Notes under the pieces: model-generated
What the model saw: only the letters and a program-made list of their open reading frames with translations
The model's database searches: none
What the model was told of the DNA's origin: nothing
Source: Candidatus Kaiserbacteria bacterium CG10_big_fil_rev_8_21_14_0_10_49_17
Lineage (GTDB): Bacteria > Patescibacteriota > Minisyncoccia > Phycocordibacterales > JABMNX01
Direction: 5' to 3'
Length of the DNA: 19,407 nucleotides
Assembly (NCBI GenBank): GCA_002778575.1
Contig: PFBJ01000019.1
Span: 773-20,179, forward strand
Position numbers and translations under genes: made by a program
In this document: one piece after another, positions 5,455 through 14,704 of the stretch
How positions within the stretch are numbered: the first letter of the stretch is position 1
Layout: every line of letters starts with the position of its first letter

Positions 5455-7923
5455 CTACACACAGATAAATGAAGCAATCTTGTCTCCCGCTCGCAATTTC
5501 ATTACGCGCACACCTTGTGTCTGCCTGCCGAGCGTCGGAATCTCATTTTGGTCAATCCGTATCACTTGCCCTTTCTGTGAAATAGCGACAAGCTCTCCTT
5601 CTTCTTTCGCATCAACGACAGCCGCGGTAATAAGATCTCCTGTCTTTGCAGAGACATTAGCGGTTTTAATACCGGAGCCGCCTCTCTTTTGGACTTTGTA
5701 TTCCGAAAGCGGCGTTTTCTTTCCGTAGCCAGTCTCTGAAAGCACCATGAGTTCTGGCTTTTGCATTGTGGTGCTTCGAGCCACTCCTGCGCCGATAATG
5801 TTATCCCCTTTTGAGAGCTTTATCGCGCGAACCCCCGCGGCAGAACGCCCCATCGCACGTACATCTTTTTCATTAAAGCGTATTGACTGGCCTTTTGCGG
5901 TAACAATCGAAACAGTATCCTTCTCTCCAACAAAATGCGTGCTAATAAGCTCGTCTCCGGTAGCAAGTTTTATCGCAATAAGTCCGCTGCGGCGCACCTC
6001 TTGGAAACTTGTCGCGTCCACTTTTTTTACAACTCCTTCTTTCGTCACCATCATTAAGTGCCACTCCCCTTTCTTGTAGGTAGAACTGATCGGCAAAACA
6101 GAAGTAACCCGCTCATTTTGGTCAAGCGAAATGAAATTCATTATTGATTTACCCTTTGTCGCGCGGCGACCCTCCGGCAACTCATACATTTTCATTTGGT
6201 ACGCCTTGCCACGGTCAGTAAAGAACAGGAGGTCGCTGTGTGTTGAGGCCGTCAGCATTGTGGTGACGAAGTCTTCCTCTTTCGTATTGAGGTCTATAAC
6301 ACCCACACCGCCGCGCTTCTGCTTCCGAAACTCATCAGGACTCGTGCGTTTAATGTAGCCGCCTTTTGTGAGCACCATGACACTCTCCTCGTCTGGCACC
6401 AGATCTTCAAGGGAAAGCGACTTTACTGGCTGCGTAACAATTTTTGTACGCCGCTCATCGCCAAATTTCTCAGCGACGGCTACGAGCTCATCGCGCACAA
6501 CGCCAAGAATTTTCTTCTCACTTGCAAGGAGCGTCTTGAGTGCTTTGATAAGCGCTTGAATGTCTTTTAATTCATCTTCAATCTTTTTCCGCTCAAGTCC
6601 CGCAAGCTTTTGCAATCGCATTTCAAGAATTGCGGTCGCCTGGATCTCGGAAAATGCAAACTGCTTCATCAGTGCGGCATGCGCGCTTGATACGTCCAAA
6701 GCCTTCTTAATCAACTTGATAATCTCATCGATGTGATCGAGCGCTTTCTTAAGCCCGAGAAGAATGTGTTCGCGCGCTTCTGCTTTCGCAAGATCGAAAC
6801 GAGCACGACGGGTGATGACTTCGACACGGTGCTTTATAAACGCCTCAAGCACACTCTTTAAAGAAAGGGTCTGCGGTACCCCATCAACGAGCGCCACCAT
6901 ATTGTAGTGAAAGGTTTCCTCGAGTTGCGTGTGCTTGTAGAGGTAATTGAGGATATTTTGCGGATGTCCTGAACCTTTGAGGTCTATTACCACTCGGATG
7001 TCATCGGTCGATTCATCTCGAATGTCTTTAATGCCGTCAATCTTTTTGTCCCGAACGAGGTCCGCGATTTTTATCAAAAGTTCTGCTTTATTTACACGAA
7101 ACGGGATGGACGTAATAATAATGTGCGCGGCTCCTTTCTTATCTTCTGTTATCTCTGCAACCCCACGCACAACAACACCACCGCGCCCTGTGGCATACGC
7201 TTGCTCGATATCTTTCTTATTAAATGCAATACCACCCACGGGAAAATCAGGGCCGTGCACGAACTGAAGCAAATCATCAGTAGTCGCCTTGGGGTTTTCA
7301 ATCAAGTGCACTGTGGCATCGCACACTTCACGGAGATTGTGGGGCGGAATATTGGTAGCCATTCCAACCGCAATACCGAGCGTGCCGTTTAGCAGTAACT
7401 GTGGAACCGCCGCGGGAAGCACTGCAGGCTCAAGCTTTGTCGCATCGTAATTTGGTTTAAAATCAACCGTATCTTTTTCAATGTCACGAAGAAGCTCACC
7501 GGAGAGCTTGTCCATTTTCGCTTCAGTGTAGCGCATCGCGGCAGGCGGGTCGCCGTCAATGGAGCCGAAGTTCCCTTGCCCGTCAACAAGCGTGTAGCGT
7601 GTATTAAAATCCTGCGCCAGCTTTGCGAGCGCGTCGTAAATTGCACTGTCTCCGTGCGGGTGGTATTTACCCATCACATCTCCGACGACTGCCGCCGACT
7701 TTCGGTAACGGGCATTTGATGAGAGCCCCATCTGGTGCATGGTGTAGAGAATGCGTCGGTGTACCGGCTTAAGCCCGTCACGCACATCAGGAAGCGCGCG
7801 GCTCGTAATAACCGACATCGCATAGTCAAGGTATGACTCTTTCATTTCAGAGCTAATGCTCTGCTCTACGACACGTGCGCCCGCTTGCTTTGCGGGCTCT
7901 TTTTCGCTCTCTTTTTTAGCCAT
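5455..7923 (-). CDS. gyrA: DNA gyrase subunit A
   Basis: [34 protein letters not shown]-region motif, active-site [10 protein letters not shown], GyrA-box-like C-terminal beta-pinwheel repeats. 822 aa. Confidence 0.97.
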
Positions 7924-7932
7924 ATAACAGCT

Positions 7933-8295
7933 CTATTCTACCAAATCCTGAGGCTCTTCGCCAGCTTCAATAACTCCGTTTTCAGCGGTTGTACTCGCCT
8001 GAGGTTGTGGAATTGCCGTATCGGCGAATGTCTCTTGAATATCCTCGCCGGCTGTTGAAAATTGCTCCTGCAGGTCTGCGACAAATGCATTGAAGCCCGC
8101 GGAGCTTTCTGTCGTCTCACGTTCTGGAAATGTAACTGTCTCCAAACTACTTCTAAAATCAACAAGCCAAAACAAGAAAATAGCGAGCGTGATACTGCCG
8201 GCAACGCTAAATACTATAGTCTGCTTTTGATGCGCGGGTCGTGCCCGCACATTTTCAAGTATCTTAAAAAACATATTTTCGATACCGTTACGCAC
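7933..8295 (-). CDS. Hypothetical single-pass membrane protein with acidic C-terminal tail. The true start may be the ATG at 8274
   Basis: The ORF-track start at 8295 is GTG and overlaps the upstream gene by 8 nt. An in-frame ATG at 8274 gives MFFKILENV.... One TM helix (IVFSVAGSITLAIFLFWLV). No recognisable domain. Confidence 0.45.
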   Translation of the reverse strand: MRNGIENMFFKILENVRARPAHQKQTIVFSVAGSITLAIFLFWLVDFRSSLETVTFPERETTESSAGFNAFVADLQEQFSTAGEDIQETFADTAIPQPQASTTAENGVIEAGEEPQDLVE

Positions 8296-8920
8296 TGAGC
8301 AACACCACCTCGCCCGAGAGCGCTTCGGCCTCTTTTTGTTTAATGGTGAGTTTCTCTATCGGCTTCAGATTTTCAGAACCTGACTCCTTTAAAAATGTTT
8401 CGAGCGCTTTCTTCTCGCCGATCTCGCCGTAGTGAATCGGTACCACAATATGCGCTTCAAGCTTCACCGCGATGTCGTGCGCGTGCTTGGCGTCGAGCAC
8501 GCCATCTCCTCCGATTGGCACACACAAAACATGCACGGTATCGATGGATTCGAGTACTTTCGCGTCAATATCTTTTGTGCCAAGTGCCCCGAGAAAAAGA
8601 ATATCCATTCCTTCAAGTGTCACCTGATATATCGTGTTGGGTCTATTCGCGCCATTGTAATTTGAAATAGACGGAAAACCGTGCACAACGACACTGCCAA
8701 CTTCGTACTCACCGGGGCCAGTAATAACAAACGGTTCTTTTTCACCGTGCGTCACCTGCTCGACTCCATTCATGTCTGGGTCGTTGATAGAAATAAGCGC
8801 GACATCAGCGCCAAATCGAGCTCCTTTTAGTTTTGAATTCTTTGAAATGGGATTAAATGCAATCGTCGTTGAACCGACGCTCGCTTTAATACATTCTCCG
8901 CCATGGTAGGTGATAACCAT
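8288..8920 (-). CDS. Metallo-beta-lactamase-fold metal-dependent hydrolase (UPF0173-like)
   Basis: MVITYHGGECIKA...DP... N-terminus and overall pattern match the small MBL-fold hydrolase family. HxHxDH-equivalent region AKHAHDIAV. 210 aa. Confidence 0.7.
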   Translation of the reverse strand: MVITYHGGECIKASVGSTTIAFNPISKNSKLKGARFGADVALISINDPDMNGVEQVTHGEKEPFVITGPGEYEVGSVVVHGFPSISNYNGANRPNTIYQVTLEGMDILFLGALGTKDIDAKVLESIDTVHVLCVPIGGDGVLDAKHAHDIAVKLEAHIVVPIHYGEIGEKKALETFLKESGSENLKPIEKLTIKQKEAEALSGEVVLLSA

Positions 8921-8959
8921 ATGCGTGAGTATAGCAGATTTTATCCCTCAAACAGACTA

Positions 8960-8987
8960 TTGACACTAAACCTTCATTTCGTATAGT
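8960..8987 (+). promoter_or_regulatory. Near-consensus sigma70 promoter TTGACA-N16-TATAGT driving the GC-rich non-coding island
   Basis: TTGACA at 8960-8965 and TATAGT at 8982-8987, read directly. Predicted TSS about 8994. A minus-strand TATACT box (8933-8928) for the hydrolase gene lies just upstream, so this is a divergent promoter region. Confidence 0.65.
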
Positions 8988-8994
8988 TAAAGAG

Positions 8995-9299
8995 TACTGC
9001 TCTCCCAAGTGGTGCAACAGAGGGGCTGTCGTTCAGCCACCTGGCGGGACCATCGCAGCGGATGCTGTTCGACAGCCCTTCGCCACCTGTTCTTTAAATA
9101 CATTTTCTCTCGTACACCACCGGCGCCCACGCACCCCGACCCCCCGCCGATGGTGCACCCGGCCAGCCTAAGAGCACCCCCCCTCTTACGCTTGGCCCGC
9201 TGTCGGAACCTCCCTAGTTGCGTCCCCGCGCTACGGAAGCCTGGACCACCGGCAGCACCGGGCCGGCGCGCCAACACGCGCCGGTCCTTTTCCTTTTTT
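8995..9299 (+). ncRNA. Unidentified structured RNA, about 300 nt, GC-rich, bounded by its own promoter and terminator
   Basis: GC-rich island well above its surroundings. No ORF with protein-like composition in any frame (the 105-111 aa ORFs here are Pro/Arg/Ala-rich low-complexity artefacts). Long-range helix gggctgtcg(9023-9031)/cgacagccc(9071-9079). Strong promoter and terminator. Family not assignable by eye. Confidence 0.5.
9260..9299 (+). terminator. Intrinsic terminator: 11-bp GC stem GGGCCGGCGCG-ccaaca-CGCGCCGGTCC, then ttttccttttttg
   Basis: Read directly from the sequence. One G-U wobble in the stem. Confidence 0.75.
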
Positions 9300-9307
9300 G
9301 CACTTTT

Positions 9308-9337
9308 AATCAACTTAGTCATATGACTAAGTTGATT
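9308..9337. promoter_or_regulatory. Perfect 30-bp AT-rich palindrome aatcaacttagtcat|atgactaagttgatt, a candidate dimeric-protein operator
   Basis: 15/15 perfect inverted repeat centred on CATATG. Lies between the terminator of the first RNA and the promoter of the second. Confidence 0.45.
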
Positions 9338-9395
9338 CGGTCACCTACCAAAATTGGCTCTCTTTATGGAGTATTTTTGAAGTAGTAAAAGGTAC

Positions 9396-9423
9396 TTGAC
9401 AAATTTTATATATATGATAGTAT
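9396..9423 (+). promoter_or_regulatory. Sigma70-like promoter TTGACA-N16-TAGTAT, preceded by an AT-rich UP-like region
   Basis: TTGACA at 9396-9401, TAGTAT at 9418-9423. TSS about 9430. Confidence 0.55.
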
Positions 9424-9429
9424 TTTACT

Positions 9430-9767
9430 ACCCTGCGGAGAACGGCACGCCTAAATGGTGCTCCGTCGCCCGAGGGTATAGTGCCGGTTCGCATTGCCGG
9501 CGAATAATAAATTAAAATGAGGACCGCACGTTATGGGTACGTGTATGGAACTCGATGAGGGGCTGAGGGAGCCCACAGACTGACACATGATCTTTATGTC
9601 GCCCCGCAACGGCGACGCCGCATTGAGGGAAAAAGGGCGAGCCTCTGAATTCCGGTATGCCTTAAAGCTACACGCTTTAGGATGTACGGCATACACGCCA
9701 CCGCCGAGCGCCCCTCGAAACGCATAGGCGAGATCAAAGAGCCCAAATCTTGGGCTCTTTTCTTTTT
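9430..9767 (+). ncRNA. Second unidentified structured RNA of about 340 nt. Alternatively a long structured leader/attenuator of rpsA
   Basis: GC-rich. Only tiny ORFs. Begins after its own promoter and ends at a strong terminator 140 nt upstream of the rpsA ATG. Several local hairpins, e.g. GCCGG-uucgcauug-CCGGC at 9486-9504. Confidence 0.45.
9737..9767 (+). terminator. Intrinsic terminator: 10-bp stem AAGAGCCCAA-atc-TTGGGCTCTT, then ttctttttg
   Basis: Read directly. Confidence 0.75.
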
Positions 9768-9789
9768 GTATATATTTTGTATAGTGCAT

Positions 9790-9807
9790 ATGCTCCGTAC
9801 GGAGCAT
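9790..9807. promoter_or_regulatory. Perfect 18-bp palindrome atgctccgtacggagcat immediately after a TATAGT -10-like box (9780-9785), in the rpsA upstream region. A second hairpin atctgc-caaaaa-gcagat lies at 9819-9836
   Basis: Read directly. Could be an operator, an RNA hairpin in the rpsA 5'UTR, or both. Confidence 0.4.
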
Positions 9808-9908
9808 TTATTAACCACATCTGCCAAAAAGCAGATACGGTACGGGCTAACACTGCACTTGCTACAGCTACGAGAAATACATGCAGAACCCGACCGCTTT
9901 TTCTATTT

Positions 9909-11045
9909 ATGGACACAGATAAAACGAAAGAAAGAGAAGAAACAGTAGAGACCACCGAGGAGGAAGTTTCAAAAAAGAAACGGGAGTCATTCCTTGGGAC
10001 CCTACTTGAAAGTGGACCGACTCCCCCATCTGAGGGCGACCTCGTCGAGGGGCCGGTTATTGCTATCGAGCGCTCACGCGTCTACATCGATCTGCCGCCA
10101 TTCGGCACCGGTATTATTTACGGCAAGGAATTTATGAGTGCGCGCGATATTCTCCGAAAGGTGAATGTCGGTGACACTATTGCCGCTAAAGTCATCGACA
10201 CTGAGAACGAAGACGGCTACATTGAGGTCTCGCTTAAAGAAGCGCGCCAGGCGCTTATCTGGGCTGAAGCCGAAGATGTAATGAGCAACAAAAAGACCCT
10301 TGAACTTCCCGTGAAGGAAGCGAACAAGGGCGGTCTTATTATTGAATGGCAAGGTATTCAGGGGTTTCTCCCAGCGTCACAGCTCGGCCCTGAGCACTAC
10401 CCGCGTGTCGAGGACGGTGACAAAGACCGTATTCTTGATGAATTGAAAAAACTTGTCGGAGAAAAACTCTCCCTCTCAATCATTACTGCAGATCCAAAAG
10501 AGAACAAACTTATTTTCTCCGAAAAGGGGGCAGACCAAAAAGAGCGCGCTGAAATGATAGACCGGTACAGCATCGGTGACGAACTTGTAGGAGAGGTGAC
10601 CGGCGCGGTTGACTTTGGCATCTTCGTAAAACTGCAGGAAGGGCTCGAAGGGCTTGTGCATATATCTGAAATTGACTGGGCGCTTGTTGAGGATCCTCGT
10701 TCGCTCTACCGTGTTGGAGATACGGTGAAAGTGAAAATTATTGAGATAAAGGACGGCAAAATTTCACTTTCCATTAAAGCGCTCCGTGAAAATCCATGGA
10801 AGAGCGCGTCGGAGAAATACAAGAAAGATGCACGAGTGAAAGGAGTTATCATCAAGTACAACAAGCACGGCGCACTTGCCTCAATCGAAGAAGGTGTTGC
10901 GGGGCTTGTGCACATCTCTGAATTTGAAGACGAGCAGGAATTGCGCAACACACTTGAACTTGGGCGTACCTACGACTTCGTGATTACTCTTTTTGAGCCG
11001 GATGAACAGCGCATGACGCTTTCATACAAACAGGCACAAGAATAG
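9909..11045 (+). CDS. rpsA: 30S ribosomal protein S1, short four-S1-domain form
   Basis: Repeated S1/OB motifs (GDLVEGPVIAIERSRVYIDL..., GDTVKVKIIEIKDGKISLSIKA, GVIIKYNKHGALASIEEGVAGLVHISEF). Acidic N-terminus. Start taken at the first ATG (9909) after the upstream terminator and promoter; the ORF-track start at 9750 is a TTG inside the terminator. Confidence 0.75.
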   Translation: MDTDKTKEREETVETTEEEVSKKKRESFLGTLLESGPTPPSEGDLVEGPVIAIERSRVYIDLPPFGTGIIYGKEFMSARDILRKVNVGDTIAAKVIDTENEDGYIEVSLKEARQALIWAEAEDVMSNKKTLELPVKEANKGGLIIEWQGIQGFLPASQLGPEHYPRVEDGDKDRILDELKKLVGEKLSLSIITADPKENKLIFSEKGADQKERAEMIDRYSIGDELVGEVTGAVDFGIFVKLQEGLEGLVHISEIDWALVEDPRSLYRVGDTVKVKIIEIKDGKISLSIKALRENPWKSASEKYKKDARVKGVIIKYNKHGALASIEEGVAGLVHISEFEDEQELRNTLELGRTYDFVITLFEPDEQRMTLSYKQAQE

Positions 11046-14075: not shown

Positions 14076-14321
14076 ATGATTAATATAGAAGTAGAAAAAG
14101 GAGGCACCGAAAATACGCAAAGCTTGATGCGTCGTTTTTCAAAGCGCATGCAAGGCTCGCGCATTATGCCTCGCATGCGTAAAATTCGCTTCTATTCCCG
14201 ACCTGCGTCTCCGGCGCTTAAAAAGCGCCAAGCGCTTCGAAAGCTCGAGCGTCGAGCAGAATACGAGAAACAACTAAAACTAGGTAAGGTTGTCGAAGGG
14301 CGCCGCGGGTCCCGTCGCTAA
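14076..14321 (+). CDS. rpsU: 30S ribosomal protein S21
   Basis: 81 aa, very basic, FSKRMQ...RKIRFYSRPS...KKR pattern characteristic of bS21. Confidence 0.8.
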   Translation: MINIEVEKGGTENTQSLMRRFSKRMQGSRIMPRMRKIRFYSRPASPALKKRQALRKLERRAEYEKQLKLGKVVEGRRGSRR

Positions 14322-14704
14322 TGGCAGAACTCTCCATTCGAAACACCACTCGGCAGTCGCTTCCGCGGCTGCCGTTTGCGCGCATGAAGGATTCGGTACT
14401 CGGGAAGACGTACGACCTTTCACTCGTATTCATTGGAGCGACGCGCGCTCGCCGACTCAATGTAGAGACACGAGGCAAAGACTATGTTCCTACTGTACTC
14501 TCATTTCCTCTCTCAAAGGAGAGCGGAGAAATTTTTATCTGTCTTTCAAAAGCACTTCAAGAGGCGCCCGCATACGGAAAAACACCGAGTCAGTTTATTG
14601 GATACCTCTTTATCCACGGACTGTTGCATTTGGACGGGCTCACACACGGTAGTACAATGGACAAATCGGAGCAGATGTTGTCGAAGAAGTTCGATTTGAA
14701 TTAA
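14321..14704 (+). CDS. ybeY: Endoribonuclease YbeY (rRNA maturation factor)
   Basis: Zinc-binding motif HGLLHLDGLTH (H-x3-H-x5-H) and VLSFPL motif. 1-nt TAATG overlap with rpsU. Confidence 0.85.
   Translation: MAELSIRNTTRQSLPRLPFARMKDSVLGKTYDLSLVFIGATRARRLNVETRGKDYVPTVLSFPLSKESGEIFICLSKALQEAPAYGKTPSQFIGYLFIHGLLHLDGLTHGSTMDKSEQMLSKKFDLN

What the first reader, a model, noticed from the sequence alone, without database searches (positions are those of the whole stretch)
8935..9340. GC-rich non-coding island with a near-consensus promoter and strong terminator: an unclassified structured RNA gene
TTGACA-16-TATAGT is almost the textbook sigma70 consensus, which is typical of stable-RNA genes. 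It drives about 300 nt of GC-rich sequence with no protein-like ORF. The island ends in an 11-bp GC hairpin plus U-tract. It contains a long-range helix (9023-9031 with 9071-9079) and recurring ccaccggc-type motifs. None of the signature boxes I know are present on the plus strand: no RNase P GGAAAGUCCGGGC or GGUAAGAGCGCACC, no tmRNA tRNA-like 3' end, no SRP domain-IV GGAAGCAGCC. The minus strand begins GGGGACGCAACUAGGGAGGUUCCGACAG, which resembles a tmRNA 5' end (B. subtilis GGGGACGUUACGGAUUCGACAGGG), but I found no matching CGUC(U/C)CCACCA 3' end and no minus-strand promoter. It is either a divergent member of a known family or an undescribed RNA.
Basis: partly seen in the sequence, partly recalled or inferred. 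Interest (0 to 1): 0.75.

Follow-up and report, generated by a model that had tools for sequence, protein, structure and literature searches.

The report
Orphan C-rich small RNA gene
A roughly 300-base GC-rich stretch in a Kaiserbacteria (candidate phyla radiation) genome looks like a real non-coding RNA gene, but it has no relatives anywhere we could search, so its function is a guess.

Summary
The island (about 8994-9299, + strand) lies between the best sigma-70-like promoter (TTGACA-16-TATAGT, 11/12) and the strongest intrinsic terminator in the 19.4-kb window. It is 65% GC in a 50% GC genome and has no codon periodicity. It folds into five well-defined hairpins (z = -5.75 with the terminator, -3.59 without).

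It matches no Rfam family on either strand, and ARAGORN finds no tmRNA. The genome is Candidatus Kaiserbacteria bacterium CG10_big_fil_rev_8_21_14_0_10_49_17. GenBank annotates the antisense 111-aa ORF as a hypothetical protein, which has no homolog among 1.84 billion representative proteins.

The island sits in a hypervariable spacer between the divergent MBL-gyrA operon and rpsA. About 90 syntenic loci from other Patescibacteria contain no homolog by blastn or nhmmer, and a covariance-model search of 84 of them (445 kb) found none either. Several do carry analogous GC-rich, C-rich promoter-to-terminator cassettes. One is a two-hairpin RNA with a 6C-like look; others are small ORFs with long C-rich tails.

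The best reading is a lineage-specific, C-rich small RNA, possibly pairing with G-rich targets as 6C and RsaE do. Conservation and covariation could not be shown. A decaying cassette with no function remains a serious rival.

The parts
8960..8987 (+). RNA1 promoter: -35 TTGACA, 16-nt spacer, -10 TATAGT. It lies back to back with a weaker minus-strand site, GTGTCA-17-TAAAAT (8966-8938), that faces the MBL gene.
   Evidence: 11/12 matches, the best site in the window.
8994..9015 (+). Hairpin H1 at the predicted 5' end. The transcription start is inferred at about 8993-8994, 6-7 nt after the -10 box. The apical loop is CUCCCA.
   Evidence: the minimum-energy and centroid structures agree.
9020..9081 (+). 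Hairpin H2, a long irregular hairpin.
   Evidence: inverted repeat I1, 18-nt arms, 83% complementary.
9082..9111 (+). AU-rich single-stranded linker, GCCACCUGUUCUUUAAAUACAUUUUCUCUC.
   Evidence: unpaired in both the minimum-energy and centroid structures.
9112..9158 (+). Hairpin H3 with a 19-nt C-rich loop, CCCACGCACCCCGACCCCC. Its 5' arm carries the first CCACCGGC copy.
9161..9197 (+). Hairpin H4 with the apical loop CACCCCCC.
9199..9256 (+). Hairpin H5, a branched-looking stem that contains CCUCCC and GUCCCC. Its 3' arm carries the second CCACCGGC copy. The minus-strand tmRNA-like string lies here (9199-9226).
9260..9299 (+). Intrinsic terminator: an 11-bp stem with 10 GC pairs and a 6-nt loop, followed by TTTTCCTTTTTT.
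   Evidence: top-ranked terminator in the window.
8987..9322 (-). The 111-aa ORF annotated in GenBank as hypothetical protein COU17_03455 (PIT90877.1). It is most likely a spurious call over the GC-rich RNA gene.
   Evidence: annotation, singleton cluster; no homolog among 1.84 billion representatives; no Pfam match; no codon periodicity.
9308..9337 (.). A perfect 30-bp palindrome between the RNA1 terminator and the RNA2 promoter. It may be an operator. Its membership in the RNA1 unit is uncertain.
   Evidence: unique in the window and in the 96 loci held when one search was run.

Best explanation
The island is an independent, lineage-restricted gene for a non-coding RNA of about 305 nt.

How it is made:
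- It is transcribed from the + strand, starting near 8994 from a near-consensus sigma-70 promoter.
- It ends at the 9260-9299 intrinsic terminator.

Where it sits:
- It occupies a hypervariable slot between two divergently transcribed conserved units, the MBL-fold hydrolase/gyrA operon and rpsA (S1).
- The host is Candidatus Kaiserbacteria bacterium CG10_big_fil_rev_8_21_14_0_10_49_17.
- In other Patescibacteria the same slot holds other strongly promoted, terminator-ended, GC-rich and C-rich cassettes.

What it most likely does:
- The RNA is a string of five local hairpins. Most of its guanines are paired, and runs of cytosine lie in apical loops and bulges: CUCCCA, CCCACGCACCCCGACCCCC, CACCCCCC and CCUCCC.
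- The most likely mode of action is as a trans-acting riboregulator. Its exposed C-runs would pair with G-rich single-stranded stretches of mRNAs. This is the mechanism demonstrated for actinobacterial 6C sRNA and for RsaE/RoxS of Firmicutes.

Shown: the promoter and terminator signals, the non-coding character, the thermodynamic foldedness, the lack of family membership and the lack of homologs.
Inferred: that it is transcribed, that it is stable, and the whole trans-acting mechanism. No target has been identified.
For: - Transcription signals: the best promoter (11/12) and the best terminator of the window lie in the right order and orientation, 305 nt apart.
- Non-coding: no period-3 GC signal (p = 0.83). 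Genuine small ORFs in the same slot of relatives show GC3 of 0.79-0.90, weaker (0.65) in L024. There is no Pfam match. The antisense ORF is an ORFan. There is no SD-plus-start arrangement on the + strand.
- Fold: z = -5.75 for the + strand against -3.56 for the minus strand. Without the terminator the values are -3.59 and -2.32. The minimum-energy and centroid structures are nearly identical.
- Loops: four of the five apical loops contain CCC. Only 16 of 300 composition-matched shuffles reach that.
- Real sequence: identical in three assemblies.
- Analogues in the same slot: L016 has a roughly 120-nt unit with a TTGACA promoter, two hairpins with loops CCCCCC and CCCUCCCCCCC, and a terminator. 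Its highest-scoring Rfam match by bits is 6C over the full model length, although below threshold.
- L019, L024 and L027 have long C-rich non-coding tails. All units in this slot are 5-20 GC points above their host locus, and all but the window's own RNA2 have C > G on the sense strand.
- Mechanism precedent: 6C binds G-rich mRNA stretches through its C-rich loops without a chaperone (PMC6486639).
Against: - No homolog exists in about 90 syntenic loci, nor in the phage, plasmid or viral collections. The only other copies are identical. There is therefore no conservation and no covariation.
- The closest relatives lack the unit entirely.
- C-rich loops largely follow from the composition. The fraction of C among unpaired bases equals that of shuffles.
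- Most genes in the window look leaderless or SD-poor, so the classic anti-SD target class is scarce here.
- The one striking duplex, with the rpsU/ybeY junction, is not exceptional once intramolecular folding is counted.
- No expression data could be consulted.
Confidence: 0.42

Rival explanations
1. It is an evolutionary relic or a neutral transcript. The slot between MBL and rpsA repeatedly gains and loses promoter-terminator cassettes. In relatives these are a small GC-rich ORF followed by a long C-rich structured tail. Here the ORF has been lost, and what remains is still transcribed but has no function of its own.
For: - The spacer ranges from 76 to 2196 bp across relatives, and its content is unrelated from lineage to lineage.
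- L019, L024 and L027/L040 have good SD sites, ORFs of 37-56 aa with high GC3, and non-coding C-rich tails of 220-345 nt that end in terminators.
- RNA1 resembles such a tail in composition and hairpin style.
- The unit is absent from the nearest relatives and has no homologs.
Against: - There is no detectable sequence similarity between RNA1 and any of those cassettes, apart from promoter or terminator boxes.
- The promoter and terminator are in pristine, near-consensus condition, which is unexpected for a decaying unit in a small genome.
- The fold z-score is well below shuffles.
- A reduced CPR genome keeping about 1 kb of useless spacer is somewhat unlikely (inference).
Confidence: 0.3
2. 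It is a cis-acting upstream element of rpsA. RNA1 and RNA2 would be tandem promoter-terminator modules, and regulated read-through would feed extra transcription into the S1 gene, as an attenuator or a long leader.
For: All three promoter-like elements (8960, 9396 and about 9765) point towards rpsA. C-rich, pyrimidine-rich RNA is the kind of ligand that S1 binds (established knowledge of E. coli S1). The arrangement is shown.
Against: - rpsA keeps its own promoter and a leader motif that appears conserved on inspection of relatives' spacers, in the last 150 bp of the spacer. This holds in relatives with 176-bp spacers that lack RNA1 and RNA2.
- Two strong intrinsic terminators and a new promoter lie in between.
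- No alternative antiterminator pairing was seen in the folds.
Confidence: 0.08
3. The functional strand is the minus strand. The island would then be either a structured 5' leader of the MBL-gyrA operon or the 111-aa protein annotated in GenBank (PIT90877.1).
For: - The minus strand is G-rich (40% G), as structured RNAs and sense strands usually are.
- It has a lower absolute folding energy.
- GenBank calls a CDS there.
- There is a weak promoter-like site at 9402-9373.
Against: - The minus-strand z-score is weaker than that of the + strand.
- There is no minus-strand terminator, and only a 9/12 promoter.
- The MBL gene has its own -10-like box 7 nt before its ATG.
- The ORF has no homolog among 1.84 billion proteins, no Pfam match, no codon periodicity and no SD, and it would have to be read through the terminator hairpin.
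Confidence: 0.06
4. It is a very divergent member of a housekeeping RNA family: tmRNA, RNase P RNA, SRP RNA or 6S RNA.
For: The length, the GC-richness and the strong promoter are typical of stable RNAs. The minus strand contains a tmRNA-like GGGGACG...UUCCGACAG string.
Against: - None of these families appears even at E <= 10 on either strand.
- ARAGORN finds no standard or permuted tmRNA.
- There is no T-arm or CCA partner for the GGGGACG string.
- The predicted fold is five local hairpins, not a 6S-like rod or a P4-type pseudoknot core.
Confidence: 0.03

Closest known systems
6C sRNA of Actinobacteria (Rfam RF01066; M. tuberculosis B11/6C)
   Same: - An independently transcribed small RNA with GC stems, runs of at least 6 C in apical loops, and an intrinsic terminator.
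- A chaperone-independent mechanism of G-C pairing with G-rich mRNA stretches (PMC6486639).
- RNA1's H3 and H4 loops (CCCACGCACCCCGACCCCC and CACCCCCC) have this look.
- The unit in the same slot of relative L016 gives 6C as its highest-scoring Rfam match by bits (23.8 bits, full model length).
   Different: - RNA1 gives no 6C match even at E <= 10.
- The L016 match is far below the gathering score of 47.
- RNA1 is four times longer (305 nt against about 75 nt) and has five hairpins.
- It comes from a different phylum, and no targets are known.
- The resemblance is one of architecture, not of homology.
RsaE/RoxS of Firmicutes and the UCCC-loop sRNAs of Staphylococcus
   Same: C-rich unpaired motifs presented on hairpins pair with G-rich ribosome-binding regions (PMC4409812 and PMC6158497, listed). 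These RNAs are stand-alone genes with a promoter and a terminator.
   Different: There is no Rfam match. Genes of this organism mostly lack SD sequences, so the canonical target class is scarce. The regulator-controlled promoter context known for RoxS is not recognisable here.
GC-rich intergenic-region ncRNA candidates (Breaker-lab GC-IGR approach)
   Same: It was detected by the same signature: an unusually GC-rich, long intergenic region in a lower-GC genome (PMC8632094, listed).
   Different: Those candidates are accepted only when several homologs show covariation. RNA1 has a single known sequence.

Membership tests
tmRNA (standard or two-piece) | A tRNA-like domain: the 5' GGGG... acceptor strand pairs with the 3' ...CCACCA end, and there is a T-arm (GGUUCGAAUCC type). 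| tested here: not met
   ARAGORN finds no tmRNA in the window. Neither strand has a CGUCCCC-ACCA partner or a T-arm near the GGGGACG string.
tmRNA (standard or two-piece) | A match to the Rfam tmRNA covariance models. | tested here: not met
   No tmRNA-clan match at gathering score or at E <= 10.
RNase P RNA (bacterial type A/B) | Conserved P4 core sequences (CR-I to CR-V) and a covariance-model match. | tested here: not met
   No RNase P match at E <= 10 on either strand. The fold has no long-range P4-like pairing.
SRP RNA (4.5S / long SRP) | A domain IV hairpin with a GNAR tetraloop and the conserved symmetric and asymmetric loops, plus a covariance-model match. | tested here: not met
   No SRP match at E <= 10.
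6S RNA | A rod-like fold of about 180-200 nt with paired 5' and 3' ends and a large central bubble. | tested here: not met
   The predicted fold is five independent local hairpins with unpaired ends. There is no 6S match.
6C RNA (RF01066) | Two adjacent hairpins, each with at least 6 C in the loop, scoring above the Rfam gathering threshold (47 bits). | tested here: not met
   RNA1 has C-rich loops but gives no 6C match at E <= 10. The relative L016 reaches only 23.8 bits.
6C / RsaE-type C-rich-loop riboregulators (functional class, not homology) | C-runs exposed in apical loops more often than composition predicts. | tested here: inconclusive
   Four of five apical loops contain CCC, against 1.5 +/- 1.1 in shuffles; 16 of 300 shuffles reach 4. 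The overall C fraction of unpaired bases equals that of shuffles.
6C / RsaE-type C-rich-loop riboregulators (functional class, not homology) | Base pairing with G-rich target mRNA regions that alters translation or stability. | not testable with these tools
   Only 29 kb of the genome was available. The best duplex, with the rpsU/ybeY junction, was not robust.
Protein-coding gene (GenBank PIT90877.1, minus strand) | Homologs, a domain match, codon periodicity and a plausible translation start. | tested here: not met
   No homolog among 1.84 billion representatives. No Pfam match. No period-3 GC signal, p = 0.83. Singleton cluster.
Conserved structured ncRNA (comparative definition) | Several diverged homologs with compensatory base changes. 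| tested here: not met
   No homolog by blastn or nhmmer in about 90 syntenic loci, and none by covariance model in 84 of them (445 kb). The only other copies are 100% identical.

The most novel reading that the evidence does not exclude
The spacer between rpsA and the MBL-gyrA operon may be a conserved expression slot in Patescibacteria. It would continually recruit unrelated, strongly promoted, GC-rich and C-rich cassettes. RNA1, together with the adjacent RNA2, would be a functional, phylum-specific riboregulator. It would work by C-run to G-run pairing in organisms that are largely leaderless and SD-poor. That would make it among the first described trans-acting sRNAs of the candidate phyla radiation, with a target logic different from SD occlusion.
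Probability: 0.2. Interest if true: 0.6.

Novelty: new member of a known kind. Interest (0 to 1): 0.35.

Why it matters
- I found no literature on regulatory RNAs in candidate phyla radiation bacteria (one full-text search). These organisms have tiny genomes, are mostly uncultured, and may largely lack SD-led translation.
- A strongly signalled orphan RNA gene gives a concrete candidate to look for in existing metatranscriptomes.
- It flags a probable mis-annotation in GenBank (PIT90877.1).
- It points to a hypervariable intergenic slot next to rpsA. That slot seems to collect highly expressed small genes across Patescibacteria.
- If RNA1 is only a decaying cassette, the finding is ordinary.

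Tried and rejected
1. Known RNA families. Rfam at gathering score on the whole window, and E-value mode on 8800-9800, 8985-9305 and 9420-9775, gave only chance-level hits. The best was Betaproteobacteria-1 on the minus strand, 20 bits against a gathering score of 49. ARAGORN found nothing.

2. Synteny-based homolog search.
   - Loci fetched: 6 from GTDB genomes, 80 from metagenomes, and the contigs of the four closest MBL homologs.
   - blastn, nhmmer and a covariance model of the 3' domain found only the window's own copies.

3. Other collections. The phage and plasmid collections and two exact-pattern scans of viral contigs gave nothing.

4. Strain variants for covariation. Cluster look-ups and contig look-ups gave only 100% identical copies over the island, or contigs that stop short of it.

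5. Spurious-ORF trick and protein hypothesis. HMMER of the annotated 111-aa ORF against 1.84 billion representatives gave no homolog.

6. Relic of the small-ORF family seen in L019, L024 and L027. One + frame ends in '...AADAVRQPFAT', vaguely like their '...AAG..AT*' C-termini. It has no start codon, no DNA similarity and no periodicity, so this was treated as chance.

7. Target prediction.
   - duplexfold picks the rpsU/ybeY junction (14281-14336) as the best non-self partner in the window. The energy is -68.6 kcal/mol, and 0 of 120 shuffles reach it.
   - The cofold ddG that counts intramolecular structure is -16.9, against a background of -9.8 +/- 5.1, and other windows reach -30. It was therefore not accepted.

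8. Replication origin. The cumulative GC skew has no minimum at the spacer, and DnaA-box-like sites are not clustered.

9. MITE or terminal inverted repeats. The 10-bp inverted repeat 8904-8913 / 9341-9350 is within chance expectation, and one arm lies inside the MBL coding region.

10. Paralogs in the same genome. The 10 kb upstream of the window has another GC-rich gene-free gap, but it shows no similarity to RNA1 or RNA2.

Full report
**What is there**

The stretch 8935-9340 lies in a gene-free spacer of about 990 bp (8921-9908). On the left is a minus-strand operon: an MBL-fold hydrolase at 8288-8920, a small hypothetical gene, and gyrA/parC at 5455-7923. On the right is a plus-strand rpsA (S1) gene, about 9909-11045, followed by pth, lepB, a hisS-like gene, an S21-like gene, ybeY, ftsA, ftsZ and trxB.

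- TTGACA-16-TATAGT at 8960-8987 is an 11/12 match, the best promoter-like site in the whole window.
- The hairpin 9260-9287 (11 bp, 10 GC pairs) followed by TTTTCCTTTT is the top-ranked terminator of the window.
- The interval between them is 64-70% GC in a 49.6% GC window and is heavily C-biased on the + strand, with 50% C and 20% G at 9101-9200.
- The 9023-9031 / 9071-9079 helix is part of an 18-nt-arm hairpin.
- CCACCGGC occurs twice in the island.
- The tmRNA-like minus-strand string is there.
- The sequence is identical in ENA, JGI and Logan assemblies, so it is not an assembly artefact.

**Coding or not**

The two long ORFs are 105 aa on the + strand and 111 aa on the minus strand. Neither has a Pfam match. 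The island shows no period-3 GC pattern (0.64/0.64/0.67, p = 0.83). Real genes nearby, and real small ORFs in the same slot of relatives, show strong periodicity with GC3 up to 0.90. No + frame has an SD-plus-start arrangement.

GenBank annotates the minus-strand 111-aa ORF as hypothetical protein COU17_03455 (PIT90877.1). This identifies the genome as Candidatus Kaiserbacteria bacterium CG10_big_fil_rev_8_21_14_0_10_49_17. That ORF has no homolog among 1.84 billion representative proteins. I regard it as a spurious call over a GC-rich non-coding region.

**Known RNA families**

- Rfam 15 gives nothing at gathering score anywhere in the window.
- It gives nothing credible at E <= 10 when only the island is searched. 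The best hit is 20 bits against a threshold of 49.
- ARAGORN finds no tRNA or tmRNA, standard or permuted.
- tmRNA, RNase P, SRP, 6S and 6C membership are therefore each tested and not met.

**Structure**

The + strand folds into five local hairpins: H1 8994-9015, H2 9020-9081, H3 9112-9158, H4 9161-9197 and H5 9199-9256. A 30-nt AU-rich linker lies at 9082-9111, and the terminator follows H5.

The minimum-energy and centroid structures agree. The z-score is -5.75, or -3.59 without the terminator. The minus strand gives -3.56 and -2.32.

Four of the five apical loops contain CCC, and only 16 of 300 shuffles reach that. However, the C fraction of unpaired bases is what the composition predicts. 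The C-rich-loop look is therefore only weakly more than a by-product of a C-rich, G-poor sequence.

**Comparative evidence**

The flanking MBL protein has no relative closer than 67% identity in 5.8 billion clusters. I collected about 90 syntenic loci. The divergent MBL/rpsA pair is widely conserved in Patescibacteria, but the spacer ranges from 76 to 2196 bp.
- The two closest lineages have spacers of 176 bp and 275 bp (the latter holds its own short promoter-terminator unit), and the next have 366 and 1013 bp.
- None contains anything similar to the island by blastn or nhmmer. A covariance model of the 3' domain, searched over 445 kb, also found nothing.
- The phage, plasmid and viral collections are also negative.
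- Conservation is therefore absent wherever it could be tested, and covariation cannot be evaluated. The evolutionary distances are large, though.

**What the relatives do show**

The slot commonly holds a strong TTGACA promoter that points towards rpsA, a short GC-rich unit and a terminator. The units are 5-20 GC points richer than their locus and, apart from the window's RNA2, have C > G on the sense strand.
- L016 has a roughly 120-nt RNA with two hairpins whose loops are CCCCCC and CCCUCCCCCCC. Its highest-scoring Rfam match by bits is 6C over the full model length, at 23.8 bits, far below the gathering score of 47.
- L019, L024 and L027/L040 have small GC3-rich ORFs of 37-56 aa, followed by C-rich hairpin tails of 220-345 nt.
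- L012 and L045 encode small secreted proteins.
- The window itself has a second orphan unit, RNA2, at 9396-9770.
- From inspection of the spacers, rpsA appears to keep its own promoter and a shared leader motif in the last 150 bp of the spacer in all the lineages inspected. RNA1 and RNA2 are therefore insertions, not part of the ancestral rpsA leader.

**Mechanism**

I commit to this reading: a lineage-specific, independently transcribed small RNA whose exposed C-runs pair with G-rich single-stranded mRNA stretches. That is the mechanism shown for 6C sRNA (PMC6486639) and for RsaE/RoxS.

This is an inference from anatomy. Three points count against it.
- No target was found.
- Genes here mostly look leaderless, with a -10 box 6-8 nt before the ATG and no SD.
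- The one striking duplex, H2 against the rpsU/ybeY junction, scores -68.6 kcal/mol with 0 of 120 shuffles reaching it. It loses its distinction when intramolecular folding is included.

The main rival is that the unit is a decaying or neutral cassette of the kind this slot turns over. Smaller rivals are:
- read-through regulation of rpsA;
- a minus-strand leader or protein;
- a divergent housekeeping RNA.

**Verdict**

The unit is non-coding, unclassified and well signalled, but it is not demonstrably a conserved structured RNA.
- It is best filed as a new orphan member of the general kind 'bacterial small RNA gene', with a 6C/RsaE-like look but no family membership.
- Interest is moderate to low. 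Its value lies mainly in being a testable sRNA candidate from the candidate phyla radiation, and in the variable rpsA-adjacent slot.

Noticed in passing
window 9396-9770 (+): A second orphan transcription unit, RNA2, lies directly downstream. Its promoter is TTGACA-16-TAGTAT with a TG extension (10/12), followed by about 340 nt and a terminator at 9736-9760. It has no codon periodicity (p = 0.69), no Rfam match and no homolog in about 90 loci. Its fold z-score is -2.99.
   Followed up: partly
window 9308-9337: A perfect 30-bp palindrome, AATCAACTTAGTCAT|ATGACTAAGTTGATT, lies between the RNA1 terminator and the RNA2 promoter. It is unique in the window and in the 96 loci held at the time of the search. 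It may be an operator for a dimeric regulator.
   Followed up: partly
window 9842-9880; also the spacers of L008, L012, L013, L016, L019, L024 and L027: A conserved motif, GCTAACCCTA...ACAGAGAA, occurs in the rpsA 5' leader of many Patescibacteria. The window has a diverged copy. It looks like an S1 autoregulatory leader element. It was seen by eye only.
   Followed up: no
window gene starts at 8920(-), 7923(-), 5395(-), 12223(-) and 17332(+): Several genes have a -10-like hexamer (TATACT, TAGAAT, TACAAT) 6-8 nt before the ATG and no Shine-Dalgarno sequence. This suggests widespread leaderless mRNAs in this organism.
   Followed up: no
window 8987-9322 (-): GenBank protein PIT90877.1 (hypothetical protein COU17_03455) is an ORFan that lies antisense over the RNA1 unit. 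It is probably a mis-annotation.
   Followed up: yes
L016 2742-2925 (-): In the same slot of a relative (GCA_026195275.1) there is an sRNA-like unit of about 120 nt. It has two hairpins with loops CCCCCC and CCCUCCCCCCC and a terminator. Its highest-scoring Rfam match by bits is 6C (23.8 bits, gathering score 47).
   Followed up: partly
Spacers of L019, L024, L027 and L040 (upstream of the MBL gene, window orientation): A family of small GC3-rich ORFs of 37-56 aa with good SD sites. L024, L027 and L040 share a C-terminal '..AAG..(A/T)T' stop; L019 ends '..ESAAT'. Each ORF is followed by a C-rich non-coding hairpin tail of 220-345 nt.
   Followed up: partly
L098 5449-6326 (same contig, about 4 kb upstream of the window): Another GC-rich gene-free gap of about 870 bp lies after rpsT. 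It has a 22-bp perfect inverted repeat (5862-5883 / 6214-6235) with arms 330 nt apart and a G10 run. It has no Rfam match and no similarity to RNA1 or RNA2.
   Followed up: partly
L006 spacer; L061 and L076 spacers: L006 carries a tRNA-like 71-nt gene with its own promoter and terminator, which Rfam did not call at gathering score. L061 and L076 share a short RNA-like unit (..CTTTTTGGCGA[AT]AAC..GTCCGCC..AGCGGATTTTT).
   Followed up: no
window 14281-14336 (+): The junction between the S21-like gene and ybeY is the best antisense partner of RNA1 hairpin H2 in the window by duplex energy alone. The effect disappears when intramolecular folding is counted.
   Followed up: yes
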